From Emiliania huxleyi CCMP1516 (lineage: Eukaryota): DNA of 64,000 nucleotides. Every line of letters begins with the position of its first letter. Within the stretch, counting starts at the first letter, position 1. The stretch spans positions 310,001 to 374,000 of the forward strand of contig NW_005201732.1 of assembly GCF_000372725.1 (NCBI RefSeq). Reading direction: 5' to 3'. Below are positions 8,104 through 55,528 of the stretch, piece by piece. The notes below the pieces were generated by a model that saw only the letters and a list, made by a program, of their open reading frames with translations, did not search any database and was not told where the DNA came from. Both the position numbers and the translations under genes were made by a program.

Positions 8104-10379
8104 TCAGAGCGGGATGTTGGAGTGCTTCTTCCACGGCCGCTGCACCTGCTTGTCGCGGAGCAGCTCGAGGTCCTCGCAGATGCGGGTGCGCGTCTCGCTC
8201 GGCGAGATGACCGCGTCGACGAAGCCGCGCTGCGCGGCGACGAGCGGGTTCGCAAACTTGGCCTCGTACCGCAGGGTCTCCTCCTCGACGTTCTTGCCGC
8301 GAAAGATGATCTCGACCGCGCCCTTGGCGCCCATCACGGCAACCTCGGCCGACGGCCACGCGTAGTTGACGTCGGCGCGCAGGTGCTTTGAGGACATGAC
8401 GTCGTACGCGCCGCCGTACGCCTTGCGCGTGATGACCGTCACCTTGGGCACCGTCGCCTCGGCGTACGCGAAGAGGAGCTTCGCGCCGTGCCGGATGATG
8501 CCGCCGTGCTCCTGAGCGCGGCCGGGCAGGAAGCCGGGCACCTGTGCGTCGGGGGCCGGAGAGGTCGGGGGAGGGTCCGGGGAGGGTCCGCGTGGCACGG
8601 AGGCGGGGGCACGTCGACGAATGTGAGGAGCGGGATGTTGAAGCAGTCGCAGAAGCGGACGAAGCGGGCAGCCTTGGCCGAGGCGTCGATGTCGAGGCAG
8701 CCCGCCAGCTCCTGCGGCTGGTTCGCGACGATGCCGACCGTCGCCCCCTCCATCCGCCCAAAGCCGGTGATGATGTTCTTCGCGTAGCTGGGCGAGACCT
8801 GCGCGCACACGCCGCGAGTCAGTTCTCGAGTCTCGAGAGAAAGCAGCCACGCCAGTCGAGGGGGAGGCCTCGAGCAGCTCGCGGTCATCGAGCACGCGCC
8901 GCACCAGCGCGCCCATGTCGTACGGCACGTTGGGATCCTATTCACAGCGGCAGGTGTGAAGAGACGCTGTTCACAGCTCCGCCCATGTCGTACGGCACGG
9001 CGGGATCCTCGGGGACAATCCGGTCGAGCGCCGAGTCTTGGCGCGGGGAGGGCGACGGTGAGGGGCGGGGGGGCGGATCCTGAGCGGTCGCGAGGGGAGG
9101 GGCGGGCAAAGGAGAGGGGCGGGCAAGGGGAGTGGCGGGCGGGTGGGAGCGAGGCGCGGCAGGGAGGGGAGAGGCGGCGAGATGCGGAGAGGCGGCGGGA
9201 TGCGGAGAGGCGGCGGCGAGGAGCGGCGGTGGGAGTGAGGCTCGCCTTTGCGCGCGCGCGAGTCCTCCGTCTCGCGAACCTGCGGGGCGAGGAGCAGGGT
9301 GAAGAAGGGCGGGGCGAGGAGCAGGGCGAAGAAGGGCGGGGCGAGGAGCAGGGTGAAGAAGGGGACAGGGGCGCGACAGGGGGCACGCCACCGGGCGTGT
9401 GTGCGTCCCGGGCGCCAGTGGGGCGGGTCGAGACGCCCTGGGCGGCGGCGAGGCGGGCCGTGGACGGCGGCGCGGCGGGAAAGGGTCACGGGGAGCATAG
9501 GGTCACGGGGAGCGTCTCGGAAAGTCGCACCGGCGGAGGCTCGCGGTTGGAGGAGGGGAGGAAGCCGACCAGACGGCGGAGAGCGGACATGGCCTCGAGG
9601 TCGTTGGCGGCGGAGAGGTGCGCCACGCCCGACGTGCGCGTGTGCGTGCGCGAGCCGCCCAGCTCCTCCGCCGTGATGACCTCGTTGGTGACTGTCTTGA
9701 CAACCTCGGGGCCCGTCACAAACATGTACGACGTGTGGTCAACCATCATCGTGAAGTCGGTCATGGCGGGCGAGTAGACGGCGCCGCCCGCGCACGGCCC
9801 CATGATTACCGAGAGCTGCGGCACCACCCCCGACGCCTCCACGTTCCGCTGGAAGACCTCGGCGTACCCGGCGAGCGACGCGATCCCTTCTTGGATCCGC
9901 GCGCCGCCAGAGTCGTTGAGCCCGATGACGGGCGCGCCGACGAGCATCGCCTGGTCCATGACCTTGCAGATCTTCTCCGCGTGCGACTCCGACAGCGACC
10001 CGCCGAACACTGTGAAGTCCTGCGAAAATACAAACACCCGCCGGCCGTCGACGAGGCCGTGGCCCGTCACGACGCCGTCGCCCGGCGGCACCTGCTCCTG
10101 CATGCCAAAGTCGATGCAGCGGTGCGCCTTGAGCGCGTCGTACTCGCGGAAGCTGCCCGGGTCGAGGAACAGCTCCAGTCGCTCGCGCGCCGTCAGCTTG
10201 CCGCGGTTGTGCTGCGACGCGATCCGCTGCTCGCCGCCGCCAAGCTGCGACGCGAGCACCTGCTCCTCGAGGCGCCGCCGGACGGAGGCCGCCTTGGCGA
10301 GGTGCGGCGGCGCCGCCAGCGCAGCGTTCGACGAGCTGCTCCGCGCGAAGAGGCGCACGGAGCGGGCCAGTCCAGCCAT
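8104..10379 (-). CDS. PCCB: Propionyl-CoA carboxylase beta chain, mitochondrial-type presequence, multi-exon
   Basis: [64 protein letters not shown]-terminal [10 protein letters not shown]. Confidence 0.97.
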
Positions 10380-11073
10380 TGATGAGAGATGTGTGTGCTC
10401 CGTGCCCAAGTCGGCGCGTGTTGGAAGAAATCCCAAAAATAACGAAACCTAGCGCAAGGCACTTCTCGTGCTCCAAGAGTGCGAGCTGCGAGGTTAGGTC
10501 TGGCTGTGTTTCTCCCCATCCCTTGGACTGCTTTTTTTTCTGTTAGACGACATGGAGGAGGGGAAGGGATGCGGCCCCGCGAGCGAGCATCCGAGGGATC
10601 TTCGTCATCACACGCATGCGGTCTCTCTCTCTCGTTTTTGTGTCTCTCTTTCGCTACGTGTTCAACGACGTTGAACAGTGTTTGACCACGGCGCTGTTCA
10701 CAGCGCGCGCGGACGGCAGTTCTGCGAGTCCCGCTCCGCAGGACTTTTGTAAAGCATGCTTGTGACTTGGTATTGCTAAAAATCTCTCTCTCTGCTTGTG
10801 NNNNNNNNNNNNNNNNNNNNNNNNNNNNNNNNNNNNNNNNNNNNNNNNNNNNNNNNNNNNNNNNNNNNNNNNNNNNNNNNNNNNNNNNNNNNNNNNNNNN
10901 AGGAACCGCCCCTTGCACGCCTGGACGGGCTGCGCGAGCCTGGAGGGGCGGGGGGGGGGCGGGTCGTGCGGGCGGGGCGGGGGGGGGGCGTGTGGACCGG
11001 CGGCCGGTGCGGTGCGGTCGCCTTGGTAGCTTCACAGTGTGGCGGCGGCCTGGCAGTATCTGCTCTGTGCCTT

Positions 11074-11074
11074 G

Positions 11075-11134
<60 letters not shown>

Positions 11135-11238: not shown

Positions 11239-11240
<2 letters not shown>

Positions 11241-11249
11241 CGTGCGTGC

Positions 11250-12583
11250 GTGCCGCTGCAGGTCGATCTCGTCGAGGAAGACGACGCCTGGCGATCCGTT
11301 GGAGTTATTAGTTATTCAGCGCTATAGTGATTACTCCGCTCGATCTCGTCGAGGGAGAACGCCTTCTCCGACGACGGTGGCGGAGCCGTAGGAGAGGACG
11401 ACGTCGCCGTGGAAGGGCACGTGCTGCGTGATGTGCCTACAGCCGCCCCCCCCCGGCCAACCGAGGACGCGTCATCTGCGCCGCTCACACGCCGCCGCAC
11501 CCCCGCGCCGCCGCTCGCATGCTGAGAGTCGCGGTGATGCCGATGCATGTCTAGGAAGTGTCTCGGAAGTGTCTAGGAAGTGTCTCGCATGCTGAGAGTC
11601 GCGGTGATGCCGATGCGGCGGAGGCGGAGGACGAGCTGGTCGGGCATGGTCTGGTACCAGGGCGAGTCCCAGCACACGCCGAAGGTCCACCTCCCGTGGT
11701 GCACCTCCTCCACCACCAGCGAGTCGAGCACCAGCCGCGAGCCTACAGGACCGCTCGCGCAAGGCTCCGCAAAGGCGCGGCAAGGCGGCGACACCTCCTC
11801 CACCGCCAGCGAGTTGGAGCACGAGCCTGTGCCGTGTACGGCGGGGGCCCCACAGCCGGAATACGCCGTATTCCAGCGGCGCGGAACCGAGCCAGTGCCG
11901 GACCGGGCGGGAGGCGCATCTGGCAAGCGTCTCATCTAGCAAGCGCCTGGCCCGAGCGACTGCGGCTCGTTCGGCAGCGCGTCAACCTCGAAAGGGGTGC
12001 GGAAGGTGGCGTCGAGGAGGGTCTCGACGCCCTCGGTCAGGCGCTCAGAGTTCTTGTCGAACCGCTGGCACCCTTCCGGCAGCGGCGGGAAGTCGGGGTC
12101 GTACCTCTCGAGCAGCGCGGCCGTCTCGTTTTGAGAGAGCAGCGCGGCGCGCTTCTGCTCCCAATAGTAGCGGTACGCGGGTGTCCAGAAGATGAGGGCG
12201 TTGAGCATGAGCGCCGCGGTGAGGGCCAGCAAGGTGAAGAGGACCAGCGGCCAGAGGAAGCGGCGCAGCCCCCCCGGCGAGCTCTCCACGTCGGCGATGC
12301 TCATGCAGAGTGTCCTCGAGACACCCGACAGGCCCTTGGCCTCGTCCATAAAGGTCGGGCCGCTCAGGCCACCCATCGCGGACCGGGAGCGGGCGAGGTT
12401 GGGCTTGGCTCCGAGCGAGCGAGTCGTTGGGGCCTGCGTCTCTGGTGGAGAGAGCACATCCCCGTCGGCGGCGTCTTGCGCCACCGCCGACAAGCGCCTG
12501 GTCTGGATGTACTCCCTGGTCGGCTTGTCGCAGAGCGGCTCGTTTGGCTTGAGCGAGCCGGCAGCAACCCTCGTGGGTGGCAT
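11250..12583 (-). CDS. Hypothetical single-pass membrane protein, multi-exon; 3' end lost in the (CA)n tract and gap
   Basis: ORF 11936-12583 has a TM segment ([25 protein letters not shown]). Downstream exons splice in frame: ...[44 protein letters not shown]. Confidence 0.6.
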
Positions 12584-16771: not shown

Positions 16772-17157
16772 AAAAATGAAAAGAATTTGATGTGCGCCGC
16801 GCGGGTGCTAGCTTTCCATCAGTTAAAATCTCTGTGTGGTGGCGGCGTGCCGTCCTCCCATCCCTCCCTTGGGTTCTCCGTTTTCTTTCTTTCTTTCTTT
16901 TTCCACCGGTTAAAATCGTACGAAAATCCCTGTGTGGTGGCGGCGTGCCGTCCTCCCATCCCTCCGTTAGGTTGTGTGCTAGTGCCAGTGCGCGCCAGTC
17001 CCGTGCCCAGTGTCGTGCGAGGGAGTTTTGTTGTAAAATTCTTCCGGCGGTAAAGTTCTTTTAACGTGCCAGTGCGCGCCAGTCCCGTGCCCAGTGTTGT
17101 GCGAGGGAGCTGGTTGTAAAATTCTTTTAACCGTTCTGAAGGTGCCTATATGGGCTT

Positions 17158-18352
17158 TGTCAGGAGACAGAACACGGAGGAGCTGTATAGGTCACTAGAG
17201 ACCCACACCATCGCTACATCACCACAGCCACCAAGTCGGATACAAGTCGATGACAATGTGCGCGGCAGGACAAACCAAACATGAGACGGTTACACAAGGA
17301 CGGTCAGGCTACGGTCAGGAAGTAGGTTTGAGTTCACACTCTCCAACACTCCCCCATTGTCTCCGCAGTCTTCATGAATGAGGATGCGGCAGACAACAAC
17401 AGCAGAGTGTGAATGTGTCTGAGCGTAGGTATGCCATCCAGACGGCAGAGACGCTCGTAGAGGCGCATTGGACTTCTTGCCAGAGGCGTTGGACAGCGGG
17501 ACGGGCTAGCGCGAGGAGGCAGGACGAGGAAGAGTCAGACAGCAATGAGGTAGAGTGGCATTGCCACGTCGAACAGATGCCCAACACTCCCCCACGACGT
17601 GATAATCGCCACACAAGGCAGAGAGGGCGTGTCGATCGTCGCGTGTTCATCGCGTACAGCTCCGGTCGTGTCGAGCGGCGACGTCGGAAGTAGCGGCGGC
17701 GAAAGGCAGGGTCCACATTCGGTGCGAGATCTTTGCGGTAGCTGCCGTTGCAGCAGCCCGAGAGCTGGTAGCGGAGGCAGCAGCTGCGATGGTGGTCCGT
17801 AGGCGAGGAGAACGGACCGGTAAGGAGAAGCAAGAGGGGATACACGTGTCCACACAGCCGCAGTGCTGGCGTAGATGCGCTCTGTCGCAGAAGATCCGCA
17901 AGCACCCAAGTTGATGTTGCGGTTGTACTCATTCTGCTCAGCCTCCGAGCCGAGCAGTTGGCGGCCGCTGTGCCACCGTGCGCCGAGCCTCTGTGCCCAG
18001 CCAATCACCACGGCTCGCGCAGTTGCCCATGGTGCCAGCCAACGTATCGAGCGTAAGCCGGAAATGCTGTGCGGCAACACATCTCGCTTGTGTGCCGCAC
18101 CAGCTCTCATGTCGGCCTCAGTGCCGCACTGCTCACTCCGTGCTCTCACCGGTCGGTACCATGTCAGGAGACGGAACACGGAGGAGCTGTATAGGTCACT
18201 AGAGACCCACACCATCGCTACATCACCACAGCCACCAAGTCGGATACAAGTCGATGACAATGTGCGCGGCAGGACAAACCAAACATGAGACGGTTACACA
18301 AGGACGGTCAGGCTACGGTCAGGAAGTAGGTTTGAGTTCACACTCTCCAACA
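17158..18352 (-). mobile_element. Complete non-autonomous LTR retroelement (TRIM-like), 1195 bp
   Basis: 191-bp TG...CA LTRs at 17158-17348 and 18162-18352 with one difference seen; 5-bp TSD GGCTT; minus-strand PBS-like TGGTACCGACC next to the 5' LTR; PPT GGGGGAG next to the 3' LTR. Confidence 0.95.
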
Positions 18353-18502
18353 GGCTTCCAGTATCGGACCTTCAACAAGACATGCGCTTTTGGCCGGAGG
18401 CTGCTTCGGACACGTCCCTTGAACAAACATATATGGGTGGTCATCGCCAATTCGCGCGCTCCGACTTGCAAGGGACTGAGAATCGAGTCATACCTCCTAC
18501 AC

Positions 18503-20875
18503 ATGGTTGACATGCTCCGCGCGGACCTCGAGGCCAGCTCGTCGCCGACCATGCGAGCAAGCAGCGACGCAAAAGGCGACGAGCCCAATGCTCGTTCCGT
18601 CGCTGCTACAAGGCCATCGCTGTGTCGTTTTCCACGCCTCGCCCCGTGCTGCGGCCTCCTCGTCGTCATCGGAGCTCTGCTCGTCGGCCTCTTCGTGGGC
18701 TGGCGCCTTCGCCCCAAGGATGGCATCGTGTCCGACCTGCTCTGCCCGAACGTGTTTGACGGACCGCCTCTCTGCCACGAGCTGCTGGACTTGCCAGGTT
18801 TCCTCGCGCCCGGCTCTCTGTTCCACGAGCAGTGTCAGGAGAAGTGCAACGAGAAAGACTCGAACGTTAGCAAGGTCTGCAGGGTCGTCAAGGCCAAGCC
18901 AGGCCTGATCCCGTGCACCACCGTTCTCGATGTGAAGGAGACTGCAAAGGCGCTGGCGAGGCAGATTGGGATGGAGTACCGGAAAGGGCAGAGCCTGCGA
19001 GAAGTAATCGAGTCGGTGGTGACGGAGGACCTGAACGGCGCGGCGCGCTCATTTTTCTGGTACTTGCGCGAGACACGCCTCGATGCGCTCTTCCTCAACT
19101 ACCTGGAAAACCCAGACGGCCCTGGTCAGCTCACCCCGACCCTGGCTCCCTACTTGCTCTCTCCCTTCGGCACGGGTGCGGCGTCTCTCCTGTCGGAATT
19201 GGGGCGGTCGATCCTGTCGATCCCCGCCATCGCCCACATTCTCTACAACTCGCACCCGAGCGCGTCCATCGCGACGGCGGAGCTTCTCAACCTCCTCGGG
19301 CGTACCGGAATCCGGGTGCCTTCGCTCGTCCCTGGGGCGCTCGGCCTCGGCCTCGCTTCCGCTCAACCTCACTCCCTTGGCTTGGGGTGGCTCGCGTCCA
19401 GCCTCCTTGGCCGCGACACGCAGCTTGTGGCGCCAGACGCTCTGGGCAAGCTGATCGACCCGCAGGTCCATGCCGGCCAAGACCAGTCGCTCGCCGTCAA
19501 GCTGACGCCAACGCCCGACGATTGGAGCGAATACGTCGAGAAGTGGTACAACGCGGGCCAGGGCATCTCCCTCCGGCGCAACGACCCGAACTACCCTCTC
19601 CTCGAACGGCTGGCTAACTACTTCCAGAACTCATGGATGAGCATGCTCCTGTTCAACATCAACGGAGATGGGGTGTACCGCTTCAGCTGCGACTACGACC
19701 GCCTCTCGAAGCTCGGCGAGGCCGCGCCCGCGCTGATGAAACACCTCGTCACCCCGGATCCCACGACGAACGAGACGCTGCTTCGCGGCGGCTCTGCCTA
19801 CGGCGAGCTCATCTTTGAGATGGTGGACCACGATGGACGGCGTGTGCTCAAGCCGAGCGCGAATCAGACGCTGCTGCAGCCGCGCCAGCTTTCAGCGTTG
19901 CTGCAGTGCGCGCACAACGGTGCCCAGATCTACCACGTCGGCCTCCACGTTGCGTCGCAGTCGATGGCGTACGCGAGCAAGGATCTCGCCACTGGCCACC
20001 AAGATCTCTCCCAGGATCCCGTCTTCCGCATGCTCAACCCTGGCCGCGATGCGACGTCGAATATCAACGCGGCGGCCGACGCATCACTGGTGAACGTGCC
20101 CGGCTTCGGGTCGCGCCGCCTGAACGCAGCCGACATGAAGGCCCTCAAGGTCCACGGCGTCGCGCCCCTCCTCGCCGACCCGTGCAATGCGTCTCGCTAC
20201 AACCCCCGCCACGACCAGCACGTTACCGAGGCCACGCTCGGCCAGCTGAATTTGTTCAACCCTACCGGCCGCCGCGCTCTCGGCATCATCTGCGCCGACG
20301 TGAGCGAGCCGGAGCAGGCCATCCAGCTGCCGGAGCGGGCGTGGGGCCAATACGTCCGGCGGCTGCGCGACGACCTCCACATCGCCTCCCAGGTCGAGCC
20401 CGTCTACATCGAGCGATACGAGCCGCCCCTCTCTGCCATGGCGATCGGGATAGAGCACACGATGACCTTCTCCATCAACTTCCTTTGGGCCGAGCTCGAG
20501 CGGCAGCCGCCCGCCGAGGCCCTGCCGTTCGCCGACATGCCCAATCCTCGCGCGTTCGGCGCCGCCTTCTTCCTCGACGTTGTCGCCTCCGCAGTCATCA
20601 CCGTCTTCTCGCACAAGACTTTGCTGGAGTGCTCCGAGCCGATCCCGGAACACACGCAGACATCCATCACGAACGAGCAGCTGATTGTGGCCGACTTCCC
20701 GCGCTCCATCGAGCTCGGCTACGACGTCAAGCTGCGCAAGATGGCGCACAGCCTGCGTGCGCTGTGGGCGGAGACGAGCCTCTTCATGGAGGCGCACCAC
20801 CCGGGCTCCCCGGTGATGAATGCCTCGTTTGTCTACGAGGTTCAGCGGTGCGTCTCCTCCTCCACCTGGATCTGA
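18503..20875 (+). CDS. Divergent lipoxygenase-like protein with N-terminal TM anchor, intronless (~790 aa)
   Basis: Long clean ORF. Motifs in LOX order: ISLRR, CDYDRL, DGRRVLKP, QIYHVGLH, DPVFRMLNPG...NINAAADASLV, GIEHTM, C-terminal SSSTWI. Confidence 0.65.
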   Translation: MVDMLRADLEASSSPTMRASSDAKGDEPNARSVAATRPSLCRFPRLAPCCGLLVVIGALLVGLFVGWRLRPKDGIVSDLLCPNVFDGPPLCHELLDLPGFLAPGSLFHEQCQEKCNEKDSNVSKVCRVVKAKPGLIPCTTVLDVKETAKALARQIGMEYRKGQSLREVIESVVTEDLNGAARSFFWYLRETRLDALFLNYLENPDGPGQLTPTLAPYLLSPFGTGAASLLSELGRSILSIPAIAHILYNSHPSASIATAELLNLLGRTGIRVPSLVPGALGLGLASAQPHSLGLGWLASSLLGRDTQLVAPDALGKLIDPQVHAGQDQSLAVKLTPTPDDWSEYVEKWYNAGQGISLRRNDPNYPLLERLANYFQNSWMSMLLFNINGDGVYRFSCDYDRLSKLGEAAPALMKHLVTPDPTTNETLLRGGSAYGELIFEMVDHDGRRVLKPSANQTLLQPRQLSALLQCAHNGAQIYHVGLHVASQSMAYASKDLATGHQDLSQDPVFRMLNPGRDATSNINAAADASLVNVPGFGSRRLNAADMKALKVHGVAPLLADPCNASRYNPRHDQHVTEATLGQLNLFNPTGRRALGIICADVSEPEQAIQLPERAWGQYVRRLRDDLHIASQVEPVYIERYEPPLSAMAIGIEHTMTFSINFLWAELERQPPAEALPFADMPNPRAFGAAFFLDVVASAVITVFSHKTLLECSEPIPEHTQTSITNEQLIVADFPRSIELGYDVKLRKMAHSLRALWAETSLFMEAHHPGSPVMNASFVYEVQRCVSSSTWI

Positions 20876-21031
20876 GATGAAGGTATTGCAATAGAGAGTA
20901 CACCTGTTGATGTGCAGTGAGAGCAAGGGTCTCGGTGTTGGCTTGTCTTGTCTAGTGAGCACGGATTCTCGGTTATCGTACATAGCGACGGGTCAATGGA
21001 CGATGCGCCGTCCCTCTCAGTCTCACGCCAT

Positions 21032-21373
21032 ACGAGGTATTTTCTTCTCAATAAAACAAGGTCTGTGAACGTGTATGCAAGGTCTTGTTTCTTATCTGCC
21101 CGCGGGCCGACCCTCACAGCTAACAGCTCACCTATCTGTGAATCTCATAGACCAGCGCAAAGCGCCACAGGAGGTATTTTCTTCTCAATAACAAGGTCTG
21201 TGGAATACGAGGTATTTTCTTCTCAATAACAAGGCGGTGAGGTATTTTCTTCTCAATAACAAGGCTGTGAAGCCATCCCCAGGGCCTCCAGGGCTCGCAC
21301 CTCAACCTCTCACAGACCAGCGCATAGCGCCATAGGACGTATTTTCATTTTCTTCTCATAACAAGGCTGTGAA
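21032..21373 (+). repeat. Cluster of about 5 copies of a ~30-bp motif inside a dispersed upstream repeat
   Basis: gaggtattttcttctcaataacaagg(t)ctgtgaa near 21034, 21173, 21209, 21239 and 21338; related copy inverted at 39327-39440. Confidence 0.85.
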
Positions 21374-21450
21374 TCACCCTACTGTGAAATGAAAGCGGCA
21401 TACGGCCGTCGCCGCCCGTCGCCGCCCGTCGCCTCGAAGGGTCGAAGCCT

Positions 21451-23166: not shown

Positions 23167-23659
23167 CGCGCACCGCTTGCGGTGGTGGATCGTGGCCCAC
23201 GATGAGACGGTTGAACGGTTCTCGCTTCTTCGTACTTCGACTTCGTGCTTCGTCTGGTGCTGGTGCTGGTGTGAAGATATCTCAGAAAATCTCCCCACAC
23301 TCAGCCGGCCGTGCTCTCGCTCTTAGCTTGAGGTTGAGCTAGCAGCAGGGCCTTGCTCTCGGTCCCCACACTCAGCAGGGCCGTGCTCTCGCTCTTGGCT
23401 TGAGAGAGCAGGAGGGCCAGGTGCACAACCCCTGGTGCCGCAACGACAGGAAAACTCACCCGCCTCCTGCACCCCGTAACCGCACAAAAAGCGTATTAGG
23501 ACTCTGTGGAGGACCCTGTGTGAGTTCCATGGTGAATTCTGTGCGAGTTACACCCTTTTTTGTGTGTGTGCGTTGCCGATTCAAACGTGCCACGCACATG
23601 TGCATCGTACAGCCCATGCACATGCGCACATGCTACATGCATGTTGCACTCTCTTGCAC

Positions 23660-28612: not shown

Positions 28613-30815
28613 GCGTGTGGCGGCGAGTGCGAGTCGTTGCGGCTGGAGAAGGAGCTGCTCGAGATGCGGCTCGATGCGATGGGGCAGCTGCTGCAGCTGC
28701 AGGACGAGGCGATGGGCCTCGGCGGGGCGGACGGCGCCGCCGAAGCGGGCGGCGAGGTCGTCGACCAAGGCGGGGAGGAGGAGGAGGGGGAGGGCGACGC
28801 ACTAGCCGCCTCCTCGCTGCGGGCTTTGGCTGCGGGCTGGCGCGAGAAGGCGCGAGGGCGGGTGGCGCTCTCTCCCCCCCCGCCCGACCGCCACACTGCC
28901 AAGCCGCTCCCCTCCCTCCCCCTCCCTCCCCCTCCCCCCCCCCCCCCTCCTCCCCTCCCTCCCCGGTAGGCGCACGAGCAGCTGCTTCGCGCCCAGCGCG
29001 AGGGCCACTCGCGCAGGCGAGCCGTCGCGTACCTCGAGGGAGAGCTTCGCGAGGCGCTCGAGGAGAACGCACGCTTGCGCCGCGAGGCGGTCGAGGCCGA
29101 GGCGCGCTGTGAACGGCGTCTCTCCAGGGCGGGGCTGTGAACAGCGTCTCTTCACACCTGCTGCTGTGAGTAGGCGCGCGTCGCCCTCTCCAAGGCGGAG
29201 CTGGCCGCGGAGGCGGCGGCCAGGCGCGCGTCCGGGTGCGATGTCACGAGGTGTGAACAGCGTCTCTTCACGCGTGTCGCGGAGAACAGGCGTGCGGCAG
29301 AGTCCGAGGCGGCAAAGGTGAGCGGCGCGCACGCGGCCGCCTGCAGCGCCCTCGCCGAGCGGCAGAGCGAGGCGGGCGAGCTGCGCGGCGTGGCGGCGTC
29401 CCTCTGCCGCTCGCTGCGCGACGAGCTGCCCGCGGTCGTGGAGGCCGCGGCGGCGCGGCTCGCCGGCGCAGAGGGCCGCCTCGTGCCCCTCGAGGAGCGG
29501 CTCGAGTTTGCCTGCGGCCGGCTCGCCGCTCTGCCGGCCCTGCTGGCCGCCGCCAAGAGGACGGCCTCGCCCGTGCCTTCGCCGCCCTGCCCCGCCGCCG
29601 GTGCGTCGTGTGCGGAGGGGCCGCCGTCCGCGCCCCCCGCTTCGCCGCCCTCCGCCTCGCCATCCCCCGCCTCGCCGCCCTCCGCCTCGCCATCCCCCGC
29701 TTCGCCGCCCTCCGCCTCGCCGCCCTCCGCCTCGCCACACCTCGCCGCCGAGGTGGAGCGGCTCGCGGCGGAGCGGCGGGCGCTGCTGCGGCGGCTCGAG
29801 CGGCTCGGCGAGGAGGAGGAGGCGCGGGCCCGCGGCGTGCGCGGCGAGGCGGAGGCGCGCGTGATCGCCGCGCGCGGCGAGGCGGAGGCGGCGCTGGCGG
29901 AGGCGGAGGGGGCGCGGGAGGCGGCGGCGAGGCTGCAGCGAAGCGCCGAGGAGAGCGAGGCGCGGGCGGCGGCCGCCGAGGCGGCGGCGGCGGCGCATAC
30001 GGCCGAGGCGCGGCGAGAGGCGGCGGAGGAGCGGTCGCGCGCCGAGGCGTGCCGCACGACGATGACGGAGGCGGTGGGCAGCTTGCAGGCGGAGCTGAGC
30101 AGCGCACGGCAGGCGGTGCAGCGGCTGGAGCGGCGAGCGGCGCGGGGCGCTGCCGAGGCGGAGGCGACGCAGGAGGCGCTGCTCGCGCGGCTGGCAGAGG
30201 CGGAGAGCAGGCACGACAGCGAGCGCGCTCTCGCTCGCGGGGCGGCGGAGGCGTCTGCCCAACAGGCGGCGCGGCGGGCGGAGGAGGCTGCGGCAGACGC
30301 GGCGAGGGAGGCGAGGTGCGCGCTCGAGGCGGAGGCCGCGCGGCTGCGGAGGGAGGCCGCGGCGGCGGAGCTCACGCACCGGTCGCTCGAGCGCGAGCTC
30401 TCGCGAGTGAAGGTGGGCGCCGCACTTGCTCCCGTGGCACGGCCGCCCCTCCCGACACCCCCTGGAGCTCGCCGCCACGCAGGCGCAGGCGGAAGAGGCT
30501 GCCCGCGCCCAGTCGGAGCTCCACGAGGGCAAGATCCGCTCGCGCGACGCGCAGCTCGCGACGGCGCGGCGCGAGCGCAACGCGCTGCTCGCGGCGCTGC
30601 GGACGGAGCAGCGCGCCAACGCCGCCAGCGCTGCCGCAGCAGAGGCACCAGCCGCACCGGCGACGCCCCAGCCGAGGCAGGCGGGTGGGAGGGCGGCGCC
30701 CACCACCGGGGCCGACGATTGTGGCGAGCGAAGCCGCCGCGGGCTCCTGTCCGCCGCCAAACTGGACGAGCTGCGCGCCCTCACCAGCAACTTGATGGCG
30801 ACGGAGGCAGTGTGA
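26773..30815 (+). CDS. SDS22-type leucine-rich-repeat protein with long coiled-coil C-terminus, multi-exon
   Basis: About 5 LRRs (LNLSHNEI, LDLSHNRI, LSLTSNRL, LLLGDNQL, LTLAGNPL); cap LPRLTLLDG; poly-Glu; A/E/R-rich heptads. Confidence 0.8.
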
Positions 30816-33164: not shown

Positions 33165-33480
33165 CCAACCCCCTTTATGTGCGCGCACTGGCGCTGCCGC
33201 TCGGGCTGCCATAAGTTGGCTGGGGTTGTATGTGCGCTGGTAACAACAGACTCGGGCATAGCCCTCGACAGCCACCCCCTAACCCCCCTCCCCCCCCCCC
33301 TTATGTGCGCGCACTGGCGCTGCCGCTCGGGCTGCCATAAGTTGGCTAGGGTTGTATGTGCGCTGGTAACAACAGACTCGGGCATAGCCCTCGACAGCCA
33401 CCCCCTAACCCCCCACCCACCCCCCTTTATGTGCGCGCACTGGCGCTGCCGCTCGGGCTGCCATAAGTTGGCGCTGCCGC
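33165..33480. repeat. 126-bp tandem repeat, about 2.4 copies
   Basis: ttatgtgcgcgcactggcgctgcc at 33175, 33301, 33427. Confidence 0.95.
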
Positions 33481-35052: not shown

Positions 35053-38000
35053 TCACACCTCGAGCTCAACCTCAAGCGGCATCTCTGCGAGCTGCATTTC
35101 GCCTCGCCTCGCCTTGCGGCGCGCTCCCCCGGCCCGCGCGCCCCTCTTGCTCGGCTGCTTGCCGAGGATGGCCTCGTTCTTGGCCCTCCGCGCGGCGTTC
35201 GCCTCGGCCTCGGTTCGGATGCCGCTCACGTCGAAGGTGTAGAGGAGCTTGTACAGGAGTACCTTGCAGACGTCTTGGATGAGGAACCACACCAGCGTGA
35301 AGGCCCACGTGAAGAGCACGTGCTCGAGGCCGAGGCCGATCAGCTGGCTGTCGGGCTCCTGCAGCGCGAGCGAGTCGGGATGCATGTTTGTGGCGACGAG
35401 CCCTCTCGAATCGAAAGGGACGAGAGCGTGGGATGCAATGGAGGGCGGGGGCAGAGTGCGCGTCTCATCTCTCGAGTGCAACGCCCGGGGAGACCTGCAC
35501 CCGGCGTCTAGGGGCTGGCTCCTGCGCGTCGAGATCTGCCCTCTCGTCGTACCGCTCGGCCGGGAAGGGCCACCTGACCGCGAGGCCGGTCGAGGCGAGG
35601 GTGGCGACCGAGGCGGCGGCGAAGACGATCTTGGAGGGGGCGCGCGTGAAGAAGAAGGACTGGGTGCGCGCGGCGAAGATCGTCCACCAGTCGCTCAGCG
35701 AGATCTTGAGGTACATCATGGCAACCACCTAACAATCAATGTCCCCCTCAACAGGCGCACGCACATAGGACCACCTGAGGGAGTGAGGAGCAGGGCTGGA
35801 GGAGGGAGAGGCGGCCATGAGGCAAGGAGGCGGCCCTGCGGGGAGGGAGGGGGGGGGGGGGGGGGGGGACCTTCCCGTACAAAAGCGACTCGCGCACGCC
35901 CATCCGGCGGATGGGCGAGCCCGGGTCCTCGGAGGAGAGGGCCCAGTGCAGCAGCAGCAGCGACGAGCCGCACGCGACGAGGCCGATCCAGCCCGCGACG
36001 AGGAAGAGGGCGGGGAGGTTCCAGCGCTCGGGGAGGGGCGAGGGGACGACGTGGTCGTACGCGATCGAGATGATGGTCGCGTCGTTGAGGATCACGATCA
36101 CCACGAGGGCGACCACGGGCAAGTTGAAGGTGGAGGGGATCGCGAGCCCGACCTGTGTGCGAGGGGACCTGTGTGCGCGCAGACGGCGGTGCGGGTGTGC
36201 GGGGTGCTTCCACAAGTGCGCTCGAGGGTCGCAGGGCCGGGAGAAGAGGGTGGGTGTGGGCACGAGCGGGCAAGCGGGCTGCAGCGGGACAAGCGGCCGG
36301 CAGGTGTGCGGCGGAGGGGGGGGTGCGGCAAGGTGCGCGGCGCTGGCGGGCCTCCGCGTCGCTCATGCGGAAGCCGTAGCTGCACTGGACGCCGCCGCAG
36401 GTGGTGGAGTCGTCGGTTCCGCTGCCAAAGTCGCCGATGTCGCTGTAGCTGCATTGGACGGCGCTGCAGGCGGAGTCGCCGCCGCCGGGTCCGCTGCCAA
36501 GGTCGGCGGTGGGGAGGGGGTAGACGTTAGGGTGGCCGGGCAGCAGCTGGTGCGCGGCGTCGTACTGCTGGGGGTGGAAGGCGAAGACGGCGACGAAGAA
36601 GAAGAGGAGCAGCTGGAAGGTGCACGCGACGCGGTAGATGACATAGTTCTTCATCCGCTGGAAGATGCAGCGCGCAATCACGATCGCGTCGACGATGACC
36701 GACAGGCCCGGCTCGGTGAGGACGAGGTCGGACGCCGCGCGCGCCGCGTCGGTCGCGCCCTCCACCGCGATGCCCACGTCGGCCTTCTTGAGGGCGGGCG
36801 CGTCGTTGACGCCGTCGCCAGTCATACCCACCGAGTGGCCGCGCTGGCGCAGCGCCTCGACGATGAGGAACTTGTGCTCGGGGAAGACCTGCGCGAACCC
36901 GTCGCTCTTTTCGATCATCGCGCCGTAGTCGCGGCCGAGCGTGCGTGGCACCTGCGGGAAGAGTCGCGGGCAGGTCAGTCACGGCACACGTTGTGCATGT
37001 TGGGCGCACCGCCACAGCCTCGCAAACACTGCACCCCTCTCCTCCCTCCCCTCTCTCCCCTCGGTGCGCCGAGGACCGTGTCTGGTGTTTGCGAGGCGAC
37101 TCGGAGGTGTGTGTCTGGGAGGCGTGCAGGGGTAAGCGGCACCTCCTCGCCCGGCAAGATGGTCGGCAGGCTGTCCGACGCGCCAATCTCGTCGCCCATG
37201 CCCAGGGCGCGCGCCGTCTCGCGCGCGATGGCACCGTGGTCGCCGGTAATCATTTTGACGACGACGCCCTGCTGCATCGCGCGCTCGATCGTCCGCTTCG
37301 TGTCTGGCCTCGGCGGGTCGAGGAAGGTGAGCATCCCGACCATCTCCATCCCGCACCCCTCGGGCCTCCTCGCGACGGCGAGCGCGCGGATGCCGCGCTG
37401 CGCCAGCTCCTCCACCTTCGCGGCGAAGACGGCGCCGATGGAGGAGCGGTTGGCTTCGTCGCACAGCCGGAGGACCACGTCGGGCGCCCCCTTGACGACG
37501 TCGAAGACGCCACCGTCTGGGCCGCGCAGCGTCGCCTCGGTGCGGCGCAGCTTCGGGTCGAACGGTGTGAAGTCGAGCTGCTCGTGCCTGTCGAGGCTCG
37601 CGGTGTCGAGGCACTCTGCCCCCAGGACGAGCGTGTCGAGCGCGTCCTTGGGAGGCTCCTTCCAGCGGGTGGCGAGGGCGGCGAGGGCGAGGATGGCCGC
37701 GTCGTCTGCGCCCTTTGCGTACGAGAGCACCTCCTGCAGCACCATCTTGTTGAGGGTGAGTGTTCCCGTCTTGTCGGAGCAGAGGACGGTCATTCCGGCG
37801 AGCTGCTCGATCGACGCGAGCCGCGCGACGATCGCCTTCTTCGCGGCGAGGAGGCGCGAGCCGAGTGCCATCGTCGCCGTGCAGACCACCTGCATCGCGA
37901 TCGGGATGGAGGTGTGAAGAGGAAGGTGTGAAGAGGAAGGTGTGAAGAGGAGGTGTGAAGAGACCACCTGCATCGCGATGGGGATGGAGGCGACGAGCAG

Positions 38001-39225: not shown

Positions 39226-39439
39226 TCCGACGGCGACGATCTCGCACAGCGGCGCAAAAACGCAGCACCCCTGGGCACAGAATCTACACCCGGCGCTGTT
39301 CACATAAACGCACAACTCCGGGCGCTGTTCACAGCCTTGTTATGAGAAGAAAATACCTGAGTGTGTGAGTGTGAAAGAAAATACGTCCTATGGCGCTATG
39401 CGCTGTCTGTGAGAGGTTGAGGCGCGAGCCCTGGAGGCC

Positions 39440-40212
39440 TGCACCCCACTCACAGTTATTTTTATGGTGTTGCTCGGGGCATAGCAGCCCATAACATGTT
39501 ATGGGTGTTATGGGTGTTATCGTGTTATGGGGCCCGGCCCCGTAACACCCATAACACCCATAACATGTTATGGGCTGCTATGAGAGAGCCGTCTCGGATC
39601 CACGGTGTTATGGCCCGAGAGGCCACACCGAACTGCTCGCCGCTGGAATTTTTGCTTCGCGCGCTGCCGCGCGCGCGCGCGAGGTTCGGCATCGATCGCC
39701 AAATATTTTCTCTTTCAAGTTAAACTCAATCACATCAACCTGCCTCCTGAGCCTGAGCGATGGCTTCAGATTGCTCAATCAAGACTTCCCCTCCCCCCCC
39801 CTTCACGCAATTTGCTTCCCGTTTCTAACTCGTACTCTAGCACACATAGTTGAAGCCGGGAATCCTCTTGAAGTCGGAGACGCGCAGGTCAAGTGACGAG
39901 GGCTTCTGGCTCTTGAACATCCTCATCCGGTAGGCCATGGTTGGCTGGTAGTAGCTACGCGGCGCGGGGCGGGCGCTCCGAAAGAAGAATTTTACCGTTC
40001 CGGGATACGCGCGGCGGGGCTCCAAAAGAAAAATCCGTGGGACACATAACAGCTGTTATGAGGTTGTTATGCTGGCTGTCATAACAACCAGTGGGAGGTG
40101 TTATGAGTGTTATGAGGTGTTATGAGGTGTTATGGGGTGTTATGAGCAGCCAGCCATAACAGCCATAACACCTGTTATGGCCGCTCCCTCAAAACCTTGT
40201 CTGGGGTCAATT
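39440..40212. mobile_element. Probable non-autonomous insertion with CATAAC/GTTATG arrays and a ~100-bp hairpin
   Basis: 39-bp perfect inverted arms in ~39480-39582; second array ~40044-40180; flanked by gaggcc at 39434 and 40213, apparently interrupting the repeat seen intact near 21271-21290. Confidence 0.5.
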
Positions 40213-40681: not shown

Positions 40682-41600
40682 TCACCTCCGGTCCTCGCTC
40701 GTCGCGCAGTATAGGCTCCTCCACGCCGCGACGCTCGCGGCGCCGACCACGAGCTCTAGCGTCAGCAGCCTGACGTCGACCGCCTGGCGCGCGAGCACCG
40801 CGCCCGCGAGCGCGAGGAGGACGCGCGTCGACGCAAAGTCCACCGACGCGCGCGCGACGCAGGCGAGGGCGTTGGCGTAGCCGAGCGACGGCAGCACGGC
40901 GGTGGGGTCCCAAGCGTTGGTCACCGCGGCGCCGACGATCCACGCGCTCGCGACCGCCGACCCCTCCGCCACCCAGCCCTCCCCCCCTCCCGCGGCGAGG
41001 ACGTCGACGCACACGAACGCAGAGCTGTACGACGCAACCACGTCGCCGACGACGAGCTGAAAGTCGTCGATCCGCGGCGGCCACGTCCGCGGCGGCCGCC
41101 TCCACCACGGCGTCTCTTCCTCCTCCACCTCCGCCGCCTCCACCTCCGCCTCCGCCGCCTCGAGGCCGCTTCCAAACGCGAGCGCGTCGAGGGCGGACAC
41201 GACGAAGAAGTCGCTGTGGCGGCCGCCGCGCGAGCCGCCCGCCTCGGCCACCGAATGCAGCAGCGTGTAGAGGCCCAGCAAAACGAAGTGGCCCCCGAAC
41301 TCGAGCAGCTCGAGCGGCCCGACCAGCTCGGCGACCACGCGCGGCAGCAGCGGCGCCATGGTCGCCGTCTGGCCCACCAGCACCGCGAGCAGGGTGCGGA
41401 AGGTGGTCACGTCGCGGAAGAAGACAAGCGCCTGCTCGAGATGCGCCGAGATGCGCCGAGATGCGCCGAGATGCGCCGAGATGCGCCGAGATTGTCCGAG
41501 AAGGCCGCCTCCTCGCGCGGCAGCCCCTCCATCACCGGTGTCGGCGGCCGCCGCGTTGGCGGCGGCCGCGTCAGCAGCGGCCGCCGGGGCCGCGGCGTCT
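40682..41600 (-). CDS. Hypothetical multi-pass membrane protein, weak DUF3054-like C-terminus, possibly plastid-targeted
   Basis: Spliced ...RPPTPVMEGLPREE|ALVFFRD across the 77-nt GC-AG intron 41432-41508 (10-bp tandem repeats); several TM segments ending AAWRSLY; 5' exon not resolved. Confidence 0.55.
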
Positions 41601-47550: not shown

Positions 47551-49295
47551 ATGTGCGCATTTCTCCTCCTCGTTCCGCTCCTCTCCGGCCTCGTGGCGAA
47601 TGCACGAGTCAAAGACCAGCGCATCCCGGTGACTGTGCTTACCGGTTTCCTCGGCAGTGGTAAGACGACCCTGCTCAACCACCTCCTCACGAAACAGCAC
47701 GGCAAGCGGCTCGCTGTAATCGAGAACGAGTTTGGAGAGGCGCGCACACGCCTGGTCGCTGATGCCAGCGGGCGCCGAGCCCGCACGTGGTCACCGCGCT
47801 TGCCTCCCTCTCACCCAAGGTTGGTATCGACGACGCGCTGCTTGGGAAGAACGCCCGCGAGGAGGCTGAGCCTGAGATCATCGAGATGATGAACGGCTGC
47901 ATCTGCTGCACCGTCCGGCAGGACCTCATTGTCGTGCTCAAGCGGATCTCGGAGAGGGTGAGCTCCGGCAAGCTCAACATCGACGCCGTCGTGATCGAGA
48001 CGACGGTGTGCCTGTCTTGCAGCCGCCACGTCCTGTGCCAGCATTACGACCCCTCGGTGACTGCCACTGCAGGGGATGGCGGACCCTGCGCCGGTCGCCC
48101 AGACCTTCTTTGTCGACGAGTCGGTGCAGGAGTGCTTTCGGCTCGACGGGATCGTGACCCTCGTCGACGCCAAGCACATCGAGCAGCACCTCGACGAGGA
48201 GAAGGCCGAGGGCGCCGAGAACGAGGCGGTGGAGCAGGTGCTGCCCTCGCCGACCGGGCCCTGCTCCACAAGTCGGACCTGTTCACGCCTCGCGCCTCAC
48301 GCCGCATCCCTTCTCACAGGTCGCCTTCGCGGACCGGCTGCTGCTCAACAAGGTGGACCTGGTCGACGAGGGCAATTAATTACATAGCTGAGATCTAATT
48401 AATTAATTACCGGCTGCTGCTCAACAAGGTGGACTTGGTCGACGAGGCGGCTCGAGCCGAGGCGGCGGCTGCCTGGAACATTCCCTGACCCTGCCGGGAC
48501 ACTGTCCTTTAGGCGGAGCTCGCGAGGGTGGAGGGGCGGCTGCGCGCCATCAACTCGTTTGCGCCCATCCAGCGCTGCCAGCAGTCGCAGGTGGCCGTCG
48601 GCGACGTGCTCGAGCTGCGCGCCTTCGACCTGCAGCGCACGCTCGAGATGGACGACGGCTTCCTCGACACGGACGCGGAGCACGAGCACGACGCGTCGGT
48701 CAGCTCGCTCGCCATCGTCCAGCCGGGCGAGGTCGACGCCGAGCTGCTCGAGGGATGGATCGGAGACCTGTTGCGCGACCGGGGCGCCGACATCTTCCGC
48801 ACAAAGGGCATCCTCGCCATCGCGGGCGGGCGCCACGGAGCCGCCTCGACCTCACACCGCCCCTCCCTCGCTGAGGCTGCTGTGAGGCGTCTGTTCGTAG
48901 GCAGCCCGAAGAAGTGCGTCTTCCAGGGCGTGCACATGATCTTCAACAGCGCGCTCGGCGGCGAGTGGGCCGAGGGCGAGCCGCGCGAGTCGAGGCTCGT
49001 CTTCATCGGCAAGAAGTTGCAGCACGAGGAGCTGCGCGCCGGCTTCAGCGCCTGCCTCGCCACCCCGCAGCTCGACGCGCAGAGGCGCGCGGCGCTCCGC
49101 TTCGAGGTCGGGGCCCACGTCCAGTGCAAGGTCGCCCCGGACGAGTGGGCAAAGGGGCGGGTCGTCGCGCAGCTCTACAGGAACACGCCCGAGGAGGGGC
49201 GCGCAGGGGGCGTGTCGCCCTACCAGGTGGAGCTCGACGGAGGAGACCTCATCTTCGTCCCGCTCGACGACGACCAGGTCATCAGGAGGGCGTGA
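47551..49295 (+). CDS. CobW/COG0523 metal-chaperone GTPase with CobW_C and a small C-terminal beta-rich domain, multi-exon
   Basis: [53 protein letters not shown]. Confidence 0.95.
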
Positions 49296-53005: not shown

Positions 53006-55528
53006 ATGCCCGACCCTCCTGCGCTGCCGCTGGACGTCGGACCCGCCGCCGGCGACGCGCGCTCCACCAGTCCCGGGGCGCAGCACGCCTACGTGCAGTC
53101 GCAGAGCCACCTGCTCAAGGCGACGAGCGACAACCCGCTGCCGACGGCGGTGCCGCCGCCGATAGCGGCGGTCGCCGGCCTGCTCGGCGTGCGCCACGTC
53201 CTCTGCCTCATCGGGCTTCCCGAGCGAGGCAAGCCCTTCATCGCCCAGCGTCTCTCCAAGTACCTCTCCTTCTTCCACGGCGCAGAGGTGAAGCTCTTCG
53301 ACGTAAACGAGGTGATGGACCGAGCCGGCGGGCCGCCCGGCTCGGACCACAACGCCATGTTCATGTTCGAGGAGATAAAGGCCTTCATGAACGCGACGTC
53401 GTCCGCCGCGGACCGCAACATGACGGTGCCTCGGGCGGGCAGCGGGAGGTCCGCCCCTGCGAGCAGCTCGAGCCCTCCGTCGCCAGAGGTGCGGCCGGTG
53501 GTGGTGCGGGAGGGGTCGGCCGAGGTGCAGCTGGCGGAGAGCCTGGCCACGCACGGCGAGGAGGAGCTGCTCGTCCACCCGAGCGACCGCCGGCGGAAGA
53601 ACGTCGACTCGGGCAAGGTTGCGATCCTCTTCGCCAACGACACCTTTGCGTGCTTCAAGGAGCAGCGCCGGAGCCGCCGCCACGGACACAGCAGCACGGT
53701 GAGCCTGCTGACCCGCCGCGTGGCTCTGCCCTGCAGGAGAAGTGGTCGGGCACGTCCAAGGAGCGGCGGAGGTGGGCGTCCGAGACGCTCGCAAAGGACC
53801 GCGCCCTCGGCGCCAAGCTCATCTTCATCGAGGTGATTGTCGACCGCGCAGACATCCTCGAGGCCAACCTGCGGGCGCGCGAGCGGGCGAAGAACGGCCC
53901 CACCGCATCGCGCGAGTCGGCGGGTCCGGCGATGTACGAGGACGAGCTGCCGGACGAGTGCCTGCGTGAGTTTGAGGACCGCGCGCGCCGCTTCCAGCGC
54001 ATCTACGTGTCGATGCAGGAGGATAGTTAATCAGTATTAGTAATATTAAAAATCAATAATGAGCGCATCTTCGTGTCGATGCAGGAGGACGGCTCCGAGG
54101 ACGACCTCTCGTACATCAAGCTCATCAACTACGGAGACAAGGTTGTGACGAACCGGATGCACGGCTACCTGCGGATGCGAATCGCCCAGTTCCTCTCGGT
54201 GATCCACCCGACGCCGCACGTCATCTACCTCTCCCGCCACGGCCAGTCTGAGTACAACGTCCTCGGGAAGCTCGGCGGCAACCCGCCCCTCTCCCCCGCG
54301 GGCCAAGAGTACGCGCGCAGGCCCGCGCAGCCGCTGCAGCTCTCTCGGTGGCACGCGACTCGCGCCGCAGCTCTCTCTCTCTCTCTCCCGGACGCCGCCT
54401 CTGTAGGCTCGCGCAGTGGGTGCCGCGCCACATCTTCTACCAGCACGGCGTGCTGACAAAATGCCGCCTCTGGCGCGCATCCGCTCCTGCGCCGCGCCGC
54501 CCTCCCCCCTCCACCGCAGGACCTCCTCCCTCCAGCGCACCATTCTCACCGCCACCCACATCCCGCACCCGATCGTGCCCGCCTCCTCCTTCGACAGCCC
54601 GGACGGCCTCCCCTCGCCGCCCGCCAAACGCAGCGCCCCGCTGGAAGCGGCGGCGACGCCTCTAGCAGCCTCCCGTGTAGGCCTCAGCTCGCCGCCCCGC
54701 CGCGGCTCGCACGAGACGGACGCCGCAACGCCCTCGGGCGGCACGCCGTCCCACCGCTTCCGCTCTCGGCAACGCTCGCGCCAGCTGCCGCCGCGCTACC
54801 TGCAGGGCGACGAGGGGGTGCTGAATGAGCCGGTGTGGGAGCAAATGTCGCGCGTCCTGTGTCCCGAGCCGCGCTGGGGAGGGGCGCGGCAAGGCCGCAG
54901 CCGGCGCCGCGGTCGCGCCGTATAGGTCGCCGCGCGTGTACCGCAACCTCGACGAGATCTTCGCGGGCGAGTACGAGGGGATGACGTACGAGGAGATCAA
55001 GAAGATTGCGCCGAGCGAGGCGACACTCCGCTCGATGGACAAGATCGGGTACCGCTACCCGCGCGGCGAGTCGTACTTCGACATCCTCGCGCGGCTCGAC
55101 CCGCTCGTGCACGAGCTCGAGTCGTACCACGAGCCGCTGCTGCTCGTCTCGCACCAGGCCGTGCTGCGGCTGCTCTACTCGTACCTGATGGGCAAGCCGC
55201 GCCACCAGGCGCCGAAGGTCGAGATCCCGCTCCACACCGTCATCCGAATCACGTACGACGGGTGCGCGACCTAGCCCTGGTAGGAGAGTGCGAAGGAGGG
55301 GCGCCCCCGTCGCCGCCGCCCTCGCCGCCGCCGCCCTCGTCACCGCCCTCGCCGCCGCCGCCCTCGTCACCGCCCTCGCCGCCGCCCTCTCTGAGCCGGC
55401 GAGCGGGTGTGCGCAGGTGGAACCCGCCGTACGAGGAGCGGTTCGTGCTCGGCCCAACCGCCAAGGGCATCCGCAACGACGGCACCATCGACGAGGGCGT
55501 CCTCGAGGACGGACAGACCAACCTCTGA
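53006..55528 (+). CDS. 6-phosphofructo-2-kinase/fructose-2,6-bisphosphatase family protein, multi-exon
   Basis: IGLPERGKPF, DLSYIKLIN, LSRHGQSEYN, TSSLQRT, LDEI, YRYPRGESY, SHQAVLR. Confidence 0.92.

What the first reader, a model, noticed from the sequence alone, without database searches (positions are those of the whole stretch)
8910..54089. Recurrent ~70-nt 'long duplication + filler' units that appear to create introns
Seen: a 25-40 bp stretch of coding sequence is duplicated around a short filler in unrelated genes. PCCB: 8910-8939 / 8980-9009 (30 bp, 2 mismatches, period 70). H+-ATPase: 37883-37912 / 37961-37990 (30 bp, 1 mismatch, period 78). CobW: 48333-48371 / 48409-48447 (39 bp, 1 mismatch, period 76). 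PFK-2/FBPase-2: 53996-54023 / 54062-54089 (28 bp, 1 mismatch, period 66). The 11.3-kb gene: 11263-11289 / 11340-11364. Each duplicated stretch contains AG|G, so removing one period restores the protein exactly (CAG|GT in the ATPase, AAG|GT in CobW). In PCCB, the ATPase and PFK-2 the mismatches fall in the copy predicted to be intronic. Established: introner TSDs are usually only a few bp, and duplicating a proto-splice site can create an intron. Inference: an ongoing intron-gain process, by staggered-break repair with filler or by an element making very long TSDs.
Basis: partly seen in the sequence, partly recalled or inferred. Interest (0 to 1): 0.9.

Follow-up and report, generated by a model that had tools for sequence, protein, structure and literature searches.

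The report
Long-duplication insertions that create introns
In the bloom-forming alga Emiliania huxleyi, insertions of about 70 bases, made of a 15-45-base copy of the landing site plus a short filler, sit in many unrelated genes, are cut out of the RNA as introns where this could be checked, likely arise during DNA-break repair, and may be a main source of this alga's introns.

Summary
Real, and much wider than reported. All five duplications are present. The genes are Emiliania huxleyi's. Independent DNA runs carry the PCCB unit (3 of 3) and the ATPase unit (2 of 2), so these are not artefacts. An RNA contig skips exactly the 70-nt PCCB unit, a GA-AG intron. PFK-2 probably has an empty allele. 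The PCCB filler is a repeated ~40-nt element: 27 of 31 distinct copies in metagenome contigs have a 14-31 bp flanking duplication (null 1 of 930), total 64-77 nt. Fifty-one more units carry other or degenerate fillers; 57 of 63 units span 64-80 nt. The starts of 21 ordinary introns resemble their own next exon (p=5e-5). E. huxleyi introners are already catalogued, but with TSD unknown or 2-4 bp and mostly unknown mechanism. The enzyme is not shown; break or gap repair with filler is most likely. The scan noted one similar intron on other DNA (e1-9728496).

The parts
8938..9007 (-). PCCB new intron, 70 nt, GA-AG: 28-nt copy of the next exon's start plus the repeated element
   Evidence: RNA contig skips 70 with an 8-nt ambiguity that holds only this G..AG register; filled in 3 of 3 DNA runs; protein map
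8938..8979 (-). ~40-nt high-copy filler element (family A) with 11-nt direct terminal repeats, ending in the acceptor AG
   Evidence: bin depth 127698 against 75 in X1; 31 distinct flanks in 35 loci
8910..8939 (-). exonic copy of the PCCB duplication (encodes DPNVPYDMG)
37890..37967 (-). H+-ATPase new intron, 78 nt, GT-AG; both sites come from the 30-bp duplication (37883-37912 / 37961-37990); filler is a tandem derivative of family A, antisense
   Evidence: spanned by DNA contigs of X1 and X3; 5 of 5 full-length transcript-type proteins single-copy; map
48353..48428 (+). CobW predicted new intron, 76 nt, GT-AG, AT-rich filler; duplication 48333-48371 / 48409-48447
   Evidence: removal restores [11 protein letters not shown] and an open frame; contig breaks at 48418 in X1 and X3 suggest the repeat is there too (inferred); splicing not seen directly
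48429..48446 (+). 18-nt CobW micro-exon left between the new intron and the next one
   Evidence: inferred from the frame
54019..54084 (+). PFK-2/FBPase-2 unit, 66 nt, predicted GA-AG intron (or 54022-54087); AT-rich filler with an in-frame stop; probably polymorphic
   Evidence: X3 spans it; X1 DNA and X14 RNA contigs stop at 54005 with 52 letters left (inferred); proteins single-copy; map
11288..11362 (-). predicted GC-AG intron, 75 nt, in the 11.3-kb gene; decayed 25-27 bp duplication
   Evidence: removal gives an open frame; no RNA check
11514..11616 (-). 33-bp perfect duplication plus an 11-bp tandem filler, period 70; no exact register, probably absorbed into a neighbouring intron
29102..29173 (+). 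predicted GC-AG intron, 72 nt, carrying family A; 6 nt match to the next exon
29224..29289 (+). predicted GC-AG intron, 66 nt, with a partial family A copy
   Evidence: donor placed by hand from the frames printed
59201..59324 (+). 57-bp perfect duplication plus 10-nt filler, period 67, upstream of a desaturase-like reading frame
23307..23404 (.). 26-bp duplication, period 72, apparently non-coding

Best explanation
A genome-wide insertion process in E. huxleyi duplicates about 15-45 bp of the target, adds a filler so that the insert totals about 64-80 nt, and the survivors in exons act as introns (seen in RNA for PCCB, predicted for the rest); it is likely staggered-nick or gap repair in which the polymerase adds filler copied from other repeats and introns or made without a template. 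Shown: the anatomy, presence in independent DNA, exact GA-AG removal in PCCB, a repeated filler family, and unrelated fillers with the same footprint. Inferred: (1) the duplicated exon start gives the donor, which is easy because this alga accepts GT, GC and GA, and the filler usually gives the AG; (2) selection keeps spliceable inserts; (3) fillers with a good acceptor are re-used as templates, which makes introner-like families without a transposase of their own; (4) old inserts decay into ordinary introns, which would help explain the high GC and GA donor share. I put the intron-gain part at about 0.9 and the repair mechanism at about 0.5.
For: Splicing: (RNA joint 8931>9002, filled in 3 of 3 DNA runs); (ATPase). 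Footprint: 57 of 63 units at 64-80 nt; filler length falls as duplication length rises (slope -1.06, n=52); period mod 3 is 24/21/18. Splice logic: 44 of 55 strand-called units have an exact G[TCA]..AG register on the coding strand against 39% simulated, and 27 of 55 have it in the first 4 nt against 9%. Heterogeneous fillers: 21 family A or relatives, 13 short tandem repeats, 8 AT-rich, 21 other; one is telomere-like. Template capture: the L021 spacer plus 5 shared nt equals 21 nt of the duplicated target in L004, another gene, while L032 has a different spacer at the same site. Recurrence: L027 has two extra 68- and 69-nt units with different AT-rich fillers at one acceptor, absent from L007. 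Decay. Staggered breaks give tandem duplications, occasionally with templated inserts (PMC5730883 passages).
Against: No enzyme was identified and no genome was held. The precise 3' end of family A at AG, with 25 of 29 strand-called copies in sense orientation, fits an RNA-templated or transposase route equally well. Generic repair does not predict a fixed ~70-nt total. The slope of -1 is partly built in, because a decayed duplication end counts as filler. 30 of 55 units also have a register on the non-coding strand, so a register alone is weak. 11 of 55 lack an exact register. The loci were selected for family A, and 25 of 35 come from one assembly. Template capture rests on one case. Splicing of the CobW, PFK-2 and 11.3-kb units from a filled allele was not seen. 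An empty PFK-2 allele could also be a precise loss. Three of four locus pairs showed no presence/absence difference.
Confidence: 0.55

Rival explanations
1. Target-primed reverse transcription: a retroelement or telomerase-like reverse transcriptase inserts short RNAs, including excised introns, giving a precise 3' end, a ragged 5' end, variable duplications and untemplated or repeat fillers.
For: Family A ends exactly at AG and the duplication begins right after it in most copies; the 5' spacer varies and once matches another locus's intron start; tandem 10-11 bp and telomere-like fillers. The TPRT signature is recalled knowledge, not from a call.
Against: No poly(A) or shared tail among the fillers; duplications of 25-45 bp are long for TPRT (recalled; the search found no paper); unique AT-rich fillers have no evident RNA parent.
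Confidence: 0.22
2. Family A and the other repeated fillers are tiny non-autonomous DNA transposons (Replitron-like, or other non-TIR introners) that make long duplications; the unique fillers are decayed or separate.
For: Direct terminal repeats, variable duplication and one fuzzy end resemble Replitron-1 insertions (PMC10288648); high copy number; a 2025 table lists an E. huxleyi family with '10bp terminal direct repeats', co-opt 5' carry 3'.
Against: Perfect young duplications flank unique AT-rich fillers too (e.g. L008:202, L014:1143); the Replitron survey names haptophyte hits only in two other species; a ~40-nt element is far smaller than the 910-bp Replitron-N1.
Confidence: 0.15
3. Old introns whose 5' ends were overwritten by gene conversion or slippage from the neighbouring exon, so that the duplication does not mark an intron gain.
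For: Stacked units at existing acceptors (L004, L016, L027) show that existing junctions are hit again; 11514 sits at an existing donor.
Against: Probable empty PFK-2 allele; a related haptophyte record that keeps another intron reads through the PFK-2 site (P0128); L007 has duplications at 13 sites in one gene.
Confidence: 0.06
4. Assembly artefact.
For: The window has N gaps and poor contig ends.
Against: The same units occur in runs of three studies and in metagenome contig L002.
Confidence: 0.02

Closest known systems
Introners (Gozashti et al. 2022, PMC9860276; 2025, PMC12130899), including their E. huxleyi families
   Same: Repeated sequence that creates introns in unrelated genes; 'co-opt 5', carry 3'' splice logic; E. 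huxleyi is already listed (five families of 37 or 70 nt in 2022, three in 2025, one with 10-bp terminal direct repeats).
   Different: TSDs there are 3-9 bp in general, and '?', 'N', 2 or 4 bp for E. huxleyi; here 14-45 bp and variable. Most fillers here are not one family, and the total insert length is conserved. Whether family A equals one of their families could not be tested.
[quoted passage not shown]
   Same: A duplicated exon stretch supplies splice sites and the protein is unchanged (ATPase, CobW, PFK-2, L033).
   Different: A foreign filler lies between the copies and usually gives the acceptor; the process recurs across many genes rather than in single cases.
[quoted passage not shown]
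   Same: New introns flanked by direct repeats around inserted DNA; parallel gains at one site.
   Different: Repeats there are described as short and may not exceed background; here they are long, far above controls, with a ~70-nt total.
Replitron-1 / Replitron-N1 of Chlamydomonas (PMC10288648)
   Same: Short direct terminal repeats, variable duplication, an end carrying parental flank.
   Different: 0.9-3.6 kb elements with a Rep transposase; no intron formation reported in the parts read; this fits family A only.

Membership tests
Introner | similar sequence in introns of many unrelated genes | tested here: met
   family A: 31 distinct flanks in 35 loci, 4 window matches; not met for the unique AT-rich fillers
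Introner | spliced out without changing the protein | tested here: met
   PCCB RNA joint and proteins; one locus only for family A
Introner, MITE type | TSD of 3-9 bp | tested here: not met
   14-31 bp
Introner, MITE type | terminal inverted repeats | tested here: not met
   the ends are direct repeats; folding is not above shuffles, z -1.13
Introner | identity with a catalogued E. huxleyi family | not testable with these tools
   motifs absent from the held supplements; consensus files are outside the library
Tandem genomic duplication intron | both splice sites come from the duplicated AG|G | tested here: inconclusive
   met for ATPase, CobW, PFK-2 and L033; not met for 18 of 25 sense family A copies
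Tandem genomic duplication intron | intron made only of duplicated sequence | tested here: not met
   every unit counted has a filler; the scan required one
Break-repair intron gain | direct repeats above background around unrelated inserts | tested here: met
Break-repair intron gain | dependence on end-joining enzymes | not testable with these tools
   needs mutants or de novo events
Replitron | short direct terminal repeats and variable TSD | tested here: met
   family A only
Replitron | fuzzy end copied from the parental flank; dinucleotide target | tested here: inconclusive
   one case (L021/L004); G follows the element in 30 of 31 copies, but this is confounded with donor selection
Replitron | Rep HUH transposase in a partner element | not tested
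   no genome held

The most novel reading that the evidence does not exclude
E. huxleyi has a transposase-free intron factory: a repair or reverse-transcription process with a ~70-nt ruler writes a copy of the target plus arbitrary filler, strikes exon starts repeatedly, has made most of the species' introns, spawns introner families as a by-product, and is the cause of its GC- and GA-donor majority and its intronic 10-11 bp repeats.
Probability: 0.35. Interest if true: 0.92.

Novelty: new variant of a known kind. Interest (0 to 1): 0.78.

Why it matters
How new spliceosomal introns arise is a long-standing question with few cases caught in the act. Here dozens of young introns in 146 kb keep their origin written on them, some differ between samples, and older introns keep traces. 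That makes the rate and mechanism of intron gain directly testable in a cultured, much-sequenced alga. It offers a mutational cause for the unusual donor usage (56% GC, 4% GA in curated genes, PMC4028052), suggests that introner screens miss families which share only half the intron, and matters for gene models in this species.

Tried and rejected
No own genome was held, so no genome-wide scan was run. Two motif scans of viral contigs found nothing. The first read-laying run was swamped by high-copy repeats and the unit joints were not listed, so the PFK-2 and CobW readings are inferred from contig ends. The representative search for CobW used an out-of-frame query and is uninformative. Filler folding: none of five fillers was clearly above shuffles (z -1.59 to 0.64, one not computable), so a snap-back origin is not supported. 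Similarity of intron 3' ends to the upstream exon in ordinary introns was not significant (p=0.11). Drift of the intronic copy towards a donor consensus was too sparse to call (9 changes in positions 2-8 of 20 copies). A greedy aligner failed on the ATPase and was replaced. One of five training sequences was out of frame; it was removed. Helical periodicity of duplication lengths and nucleosome linkers were not tested. The genome paper was not held; PMC2784329 passages had nothing relevant. Searches that found no description of long duplications around E. huxleyi introns. One 2022 supplement was cut when stored and the consensus files of both introner papers were not visible, so they may bear on novelty.
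Full report
Observation. The five duplications are present as described. A scan of the window for non-simple direct repeats found them plus units at 11514 (33 bp, period 70), 59201 (57 bp, period 67) and 23307 (26 bp, period 72). The PCCB cluster holds a named Emiliania huxleyi protein with the same sequence around the unit, and the PFK-2 and ATPase clusters also hold E. huxleyi records. No whole genome was held.

Not an artefact. DNA contigs of X1 and X3 span the ATPase unit (X1 1156 of 1156 letters without a gap). For PCCB, contigs of X1, X2 and X3, from three studies, cover copy plus filler from both sides, and none joins across (3 of 3). Metagenome locus L002 carries it too (98.3% identical over 1342 nt). 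For PFK-2, X3 spans the unit to 54123, whereas an X1 DNA contig that keeps the upstream intron stops at 54005 with 52 letters left, exactly 54072-54123. I infer an empty allele; the joint row was not printed. CobW contigs of X1 and X3 both start at 48418, the last 30 nt of copy 2, as a graph branch at a perfect repeat would give (inferred).

Splicing. RNA contig 11 of X11 skips 70 nt at 8931>9002 with 8 letters of ambiguity, along with the four ordinary PCCB introns. The only G..AG register there is a GA-AG intron, 9007-8938. GA donors are known in this species (11 of 241 curated junctions, one checked by RT-PCR; PMC4028052 passages). All five proteins of the two top PCCB clusters read EDPNVPYDM (four from short JGI contigs, taken as transcripts, one a gene model). 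All 5 full-length JGI ATPase proteins have one PIAMQVV, although retention would be in frame. PFK-2 proteins read RIYVSMQEDG, but these could come from empty alleles. CobW and the 11.3-kb gene regain open frames on removal; no RNA shows this.

The PCCB filler is a repeated element. Its bin has depth 127698 against 75 in X1, and similar ratios in X2 and X3 (the tool warns this is not a copy number). A 26-nt pattern found 40 matches in 35 metagenome loci, 82 kb in all; 25 loci come from one assembly and 6 from a second, and their species is inferred, not shown, except for L002. One match had no right end and 8 were duplicates, leaving 31. The element is about 40 nt with 11-nt direct repeats at its ends. 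27 of 31 copies have a flanking duplication scoring 12 or more, against 1 of 930 mismatched pairs; lengths are 14-31 bp and totals 64-77 nt. By a codon model 25 are sense, 4 antisense and 2 unclear. All 25 sense copies are followed by GC (14), GT (9) or GA (2), and in 18 of the 25 the exon before the donor does not end in AG. So the duplicated exon start gives the donor and the element the acceptor. In antisense L033 the duplication's own AG|GT gives both, as in the window ATPase, whose filler is a tandem derivative of the element.

The footprint is general. A scan at periods 30-250 gave 79 distinct units (65 in loci, 14 in the window); 51 of 65 and 6 of 14 lie at 60-79. Of 63 at period 55-110, 57 lie at 64-80, with duplications of 18-45 bp. 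Shuffled loci gave 0 in two replicates. Fillers: 21 family A or relatives (12 of them intact by the stricter motif), 13 short tandem repeats, 8 AT-rich, 21 other. Filler length falls with duplication length (slope -1.06, r -0.59, n=52), partly by construction. Period mod 3 is even. After dropping 8 weak strand calls, 44 of 55 have an exact register on the coding strand (39% simulated; 30 of 55 on the other strand) and 27 of 55 have it within 4 nt of the duplication's start (9% simulated). One gene, L007, shows 13 marked units in 4.1 kb. These loci were chosen for the element, so their density is biased; in four window genes 4 of 25 introns are clear units.

Clues to mechanism. L021 and L032 have the same site and duplication but different spacers, and 21 nt before the L021 element equal the duplicated target of L004, a different gene, with short matching sequence at both junctions. 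L027 has two further units of 68 and 69 nt with different AT-rich fillers at an acceptor where L007 has none; three other locus pairs showed no such difference. Those stacked units, and 59201 and 23307, need not be spliced singly, and a 47-nt PFK-2 intron is implied by a transcript-type protein. Together these hint that 64-80 nt is not only the splicing minimum. This is a hint from few cases.

Older introns. For the 21 other introns of PCCB, the ATPase, PFK-2 (mapped from proteins; one PFK-2 intron placed by hand) and CobW (placed by hand), the intron start aligns to its own next exon better than to others: score 104 against 56.4 (sd 7.4) globally and 61.8 (sd 8.6) within genes, p=5e-5, the floor of 20000 permutations, and the same without the first two bases. 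The donor dinucleotide equals the next exon's first two bases in 13 of 21 (null 7.1, p=0.003). All 4 GA donors among the 25 introns precede an exon starting GA. The 3' side was not significant (p=0.11). One high scorer, 54606-54680, is retained in protein P0127.

Comparison with the literature. E. huxleyi is listed as introner-bearing: five families of 37 or 70 nt with TSD '?' or 'N' in 2022 (PMC9860276, supplement rows), and three in 2025, two unknown and one called LTR, one with '10bp terminal direct repeats', co-opt 5' carry 3', automated TSDs of 2 and 4 bp (PMC12130899, supplement rows). Family A may be one of them; I could not test this. Introner TSDs are given as 3-9 bp (passages; section 23 read). 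Tandem-duplication and break-repair models are reviewed in PMC3443670 (passages); a potato case is in PMC4974935 (abstract). Replitron-1 shows direct terminal repeats, a fuzzy end and variable TSDs (PMC10288648, parts 1-5 of 7). Staggered breaks yield tandem duplications with occasional templated inserts (PMC5730883 passages). A 2024 review did not mention Emiliania (PMC11282704 passages). Ten searches found no account of long duplications in this species; the library lacks most subscription papers, including the genome paper.

Verdict. It works like an introner and family A meets the loose definition, but it fails the MITE tests, and most fillers are not that family. I favour break or gap repair with templated or untemplated filler, filtered by splicing (0.55), over reverse transcription (0.22) and a Replitron-like transposon (0.15). 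A new variant of a known kind; interest 0.78.

Noticed in passing
window 21030-21390 and 39300-39440; L007 end: A ~100-nt intergenic repeat, in partial tandem at 21 kb, ends in the same motif as family A; the 39.3-kb copy lies in a very high-depth bin; possible longer relative.
   Followed up: no
window 32248-33140 and 33169-33470: 125-bp satellite of about 7 copies next to a 126-bp repeat, near a small AP2-like reading frame (label from recall).
   Followed up: no
window 54473-54519: 47-nt intron implied by protein P0155, shorter than any young unit.
   Followed up: partly
window 54606-54680: 75-nt in-frame intron removed in P0155 but kept in P0127; strong match to its next exon.
   Followed up: partly
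L016:179-281; L022:3233: Telomere-like or G-rich repeat fillers inside long duplications.
   Followed up: no
L004, L014, L016, L022, L034: Head-to-tail arrays of duplication plus element, which would create recursive AG|G sites.
   Followed up: partly
window 17155-17340 and 18165-18350: A stretch of about 180 nt occurs twice about 1 kb apart, upstream of a long intronless reading frame (about 18500-20877).
   Followed up: no
window 36376-36470: Degenerate 26-bp repeat, period 69, inside ATPase coding sequence; it encodes a protein repeat and is not spliced in the transcript-type protein.
   Followed up: partly
window 41437-41490, 24300-24375, 57330-57450: 10-11 bp tandem repeats in introns or flanks, of the same kinds as the tandem fillers.
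   Followed up: no
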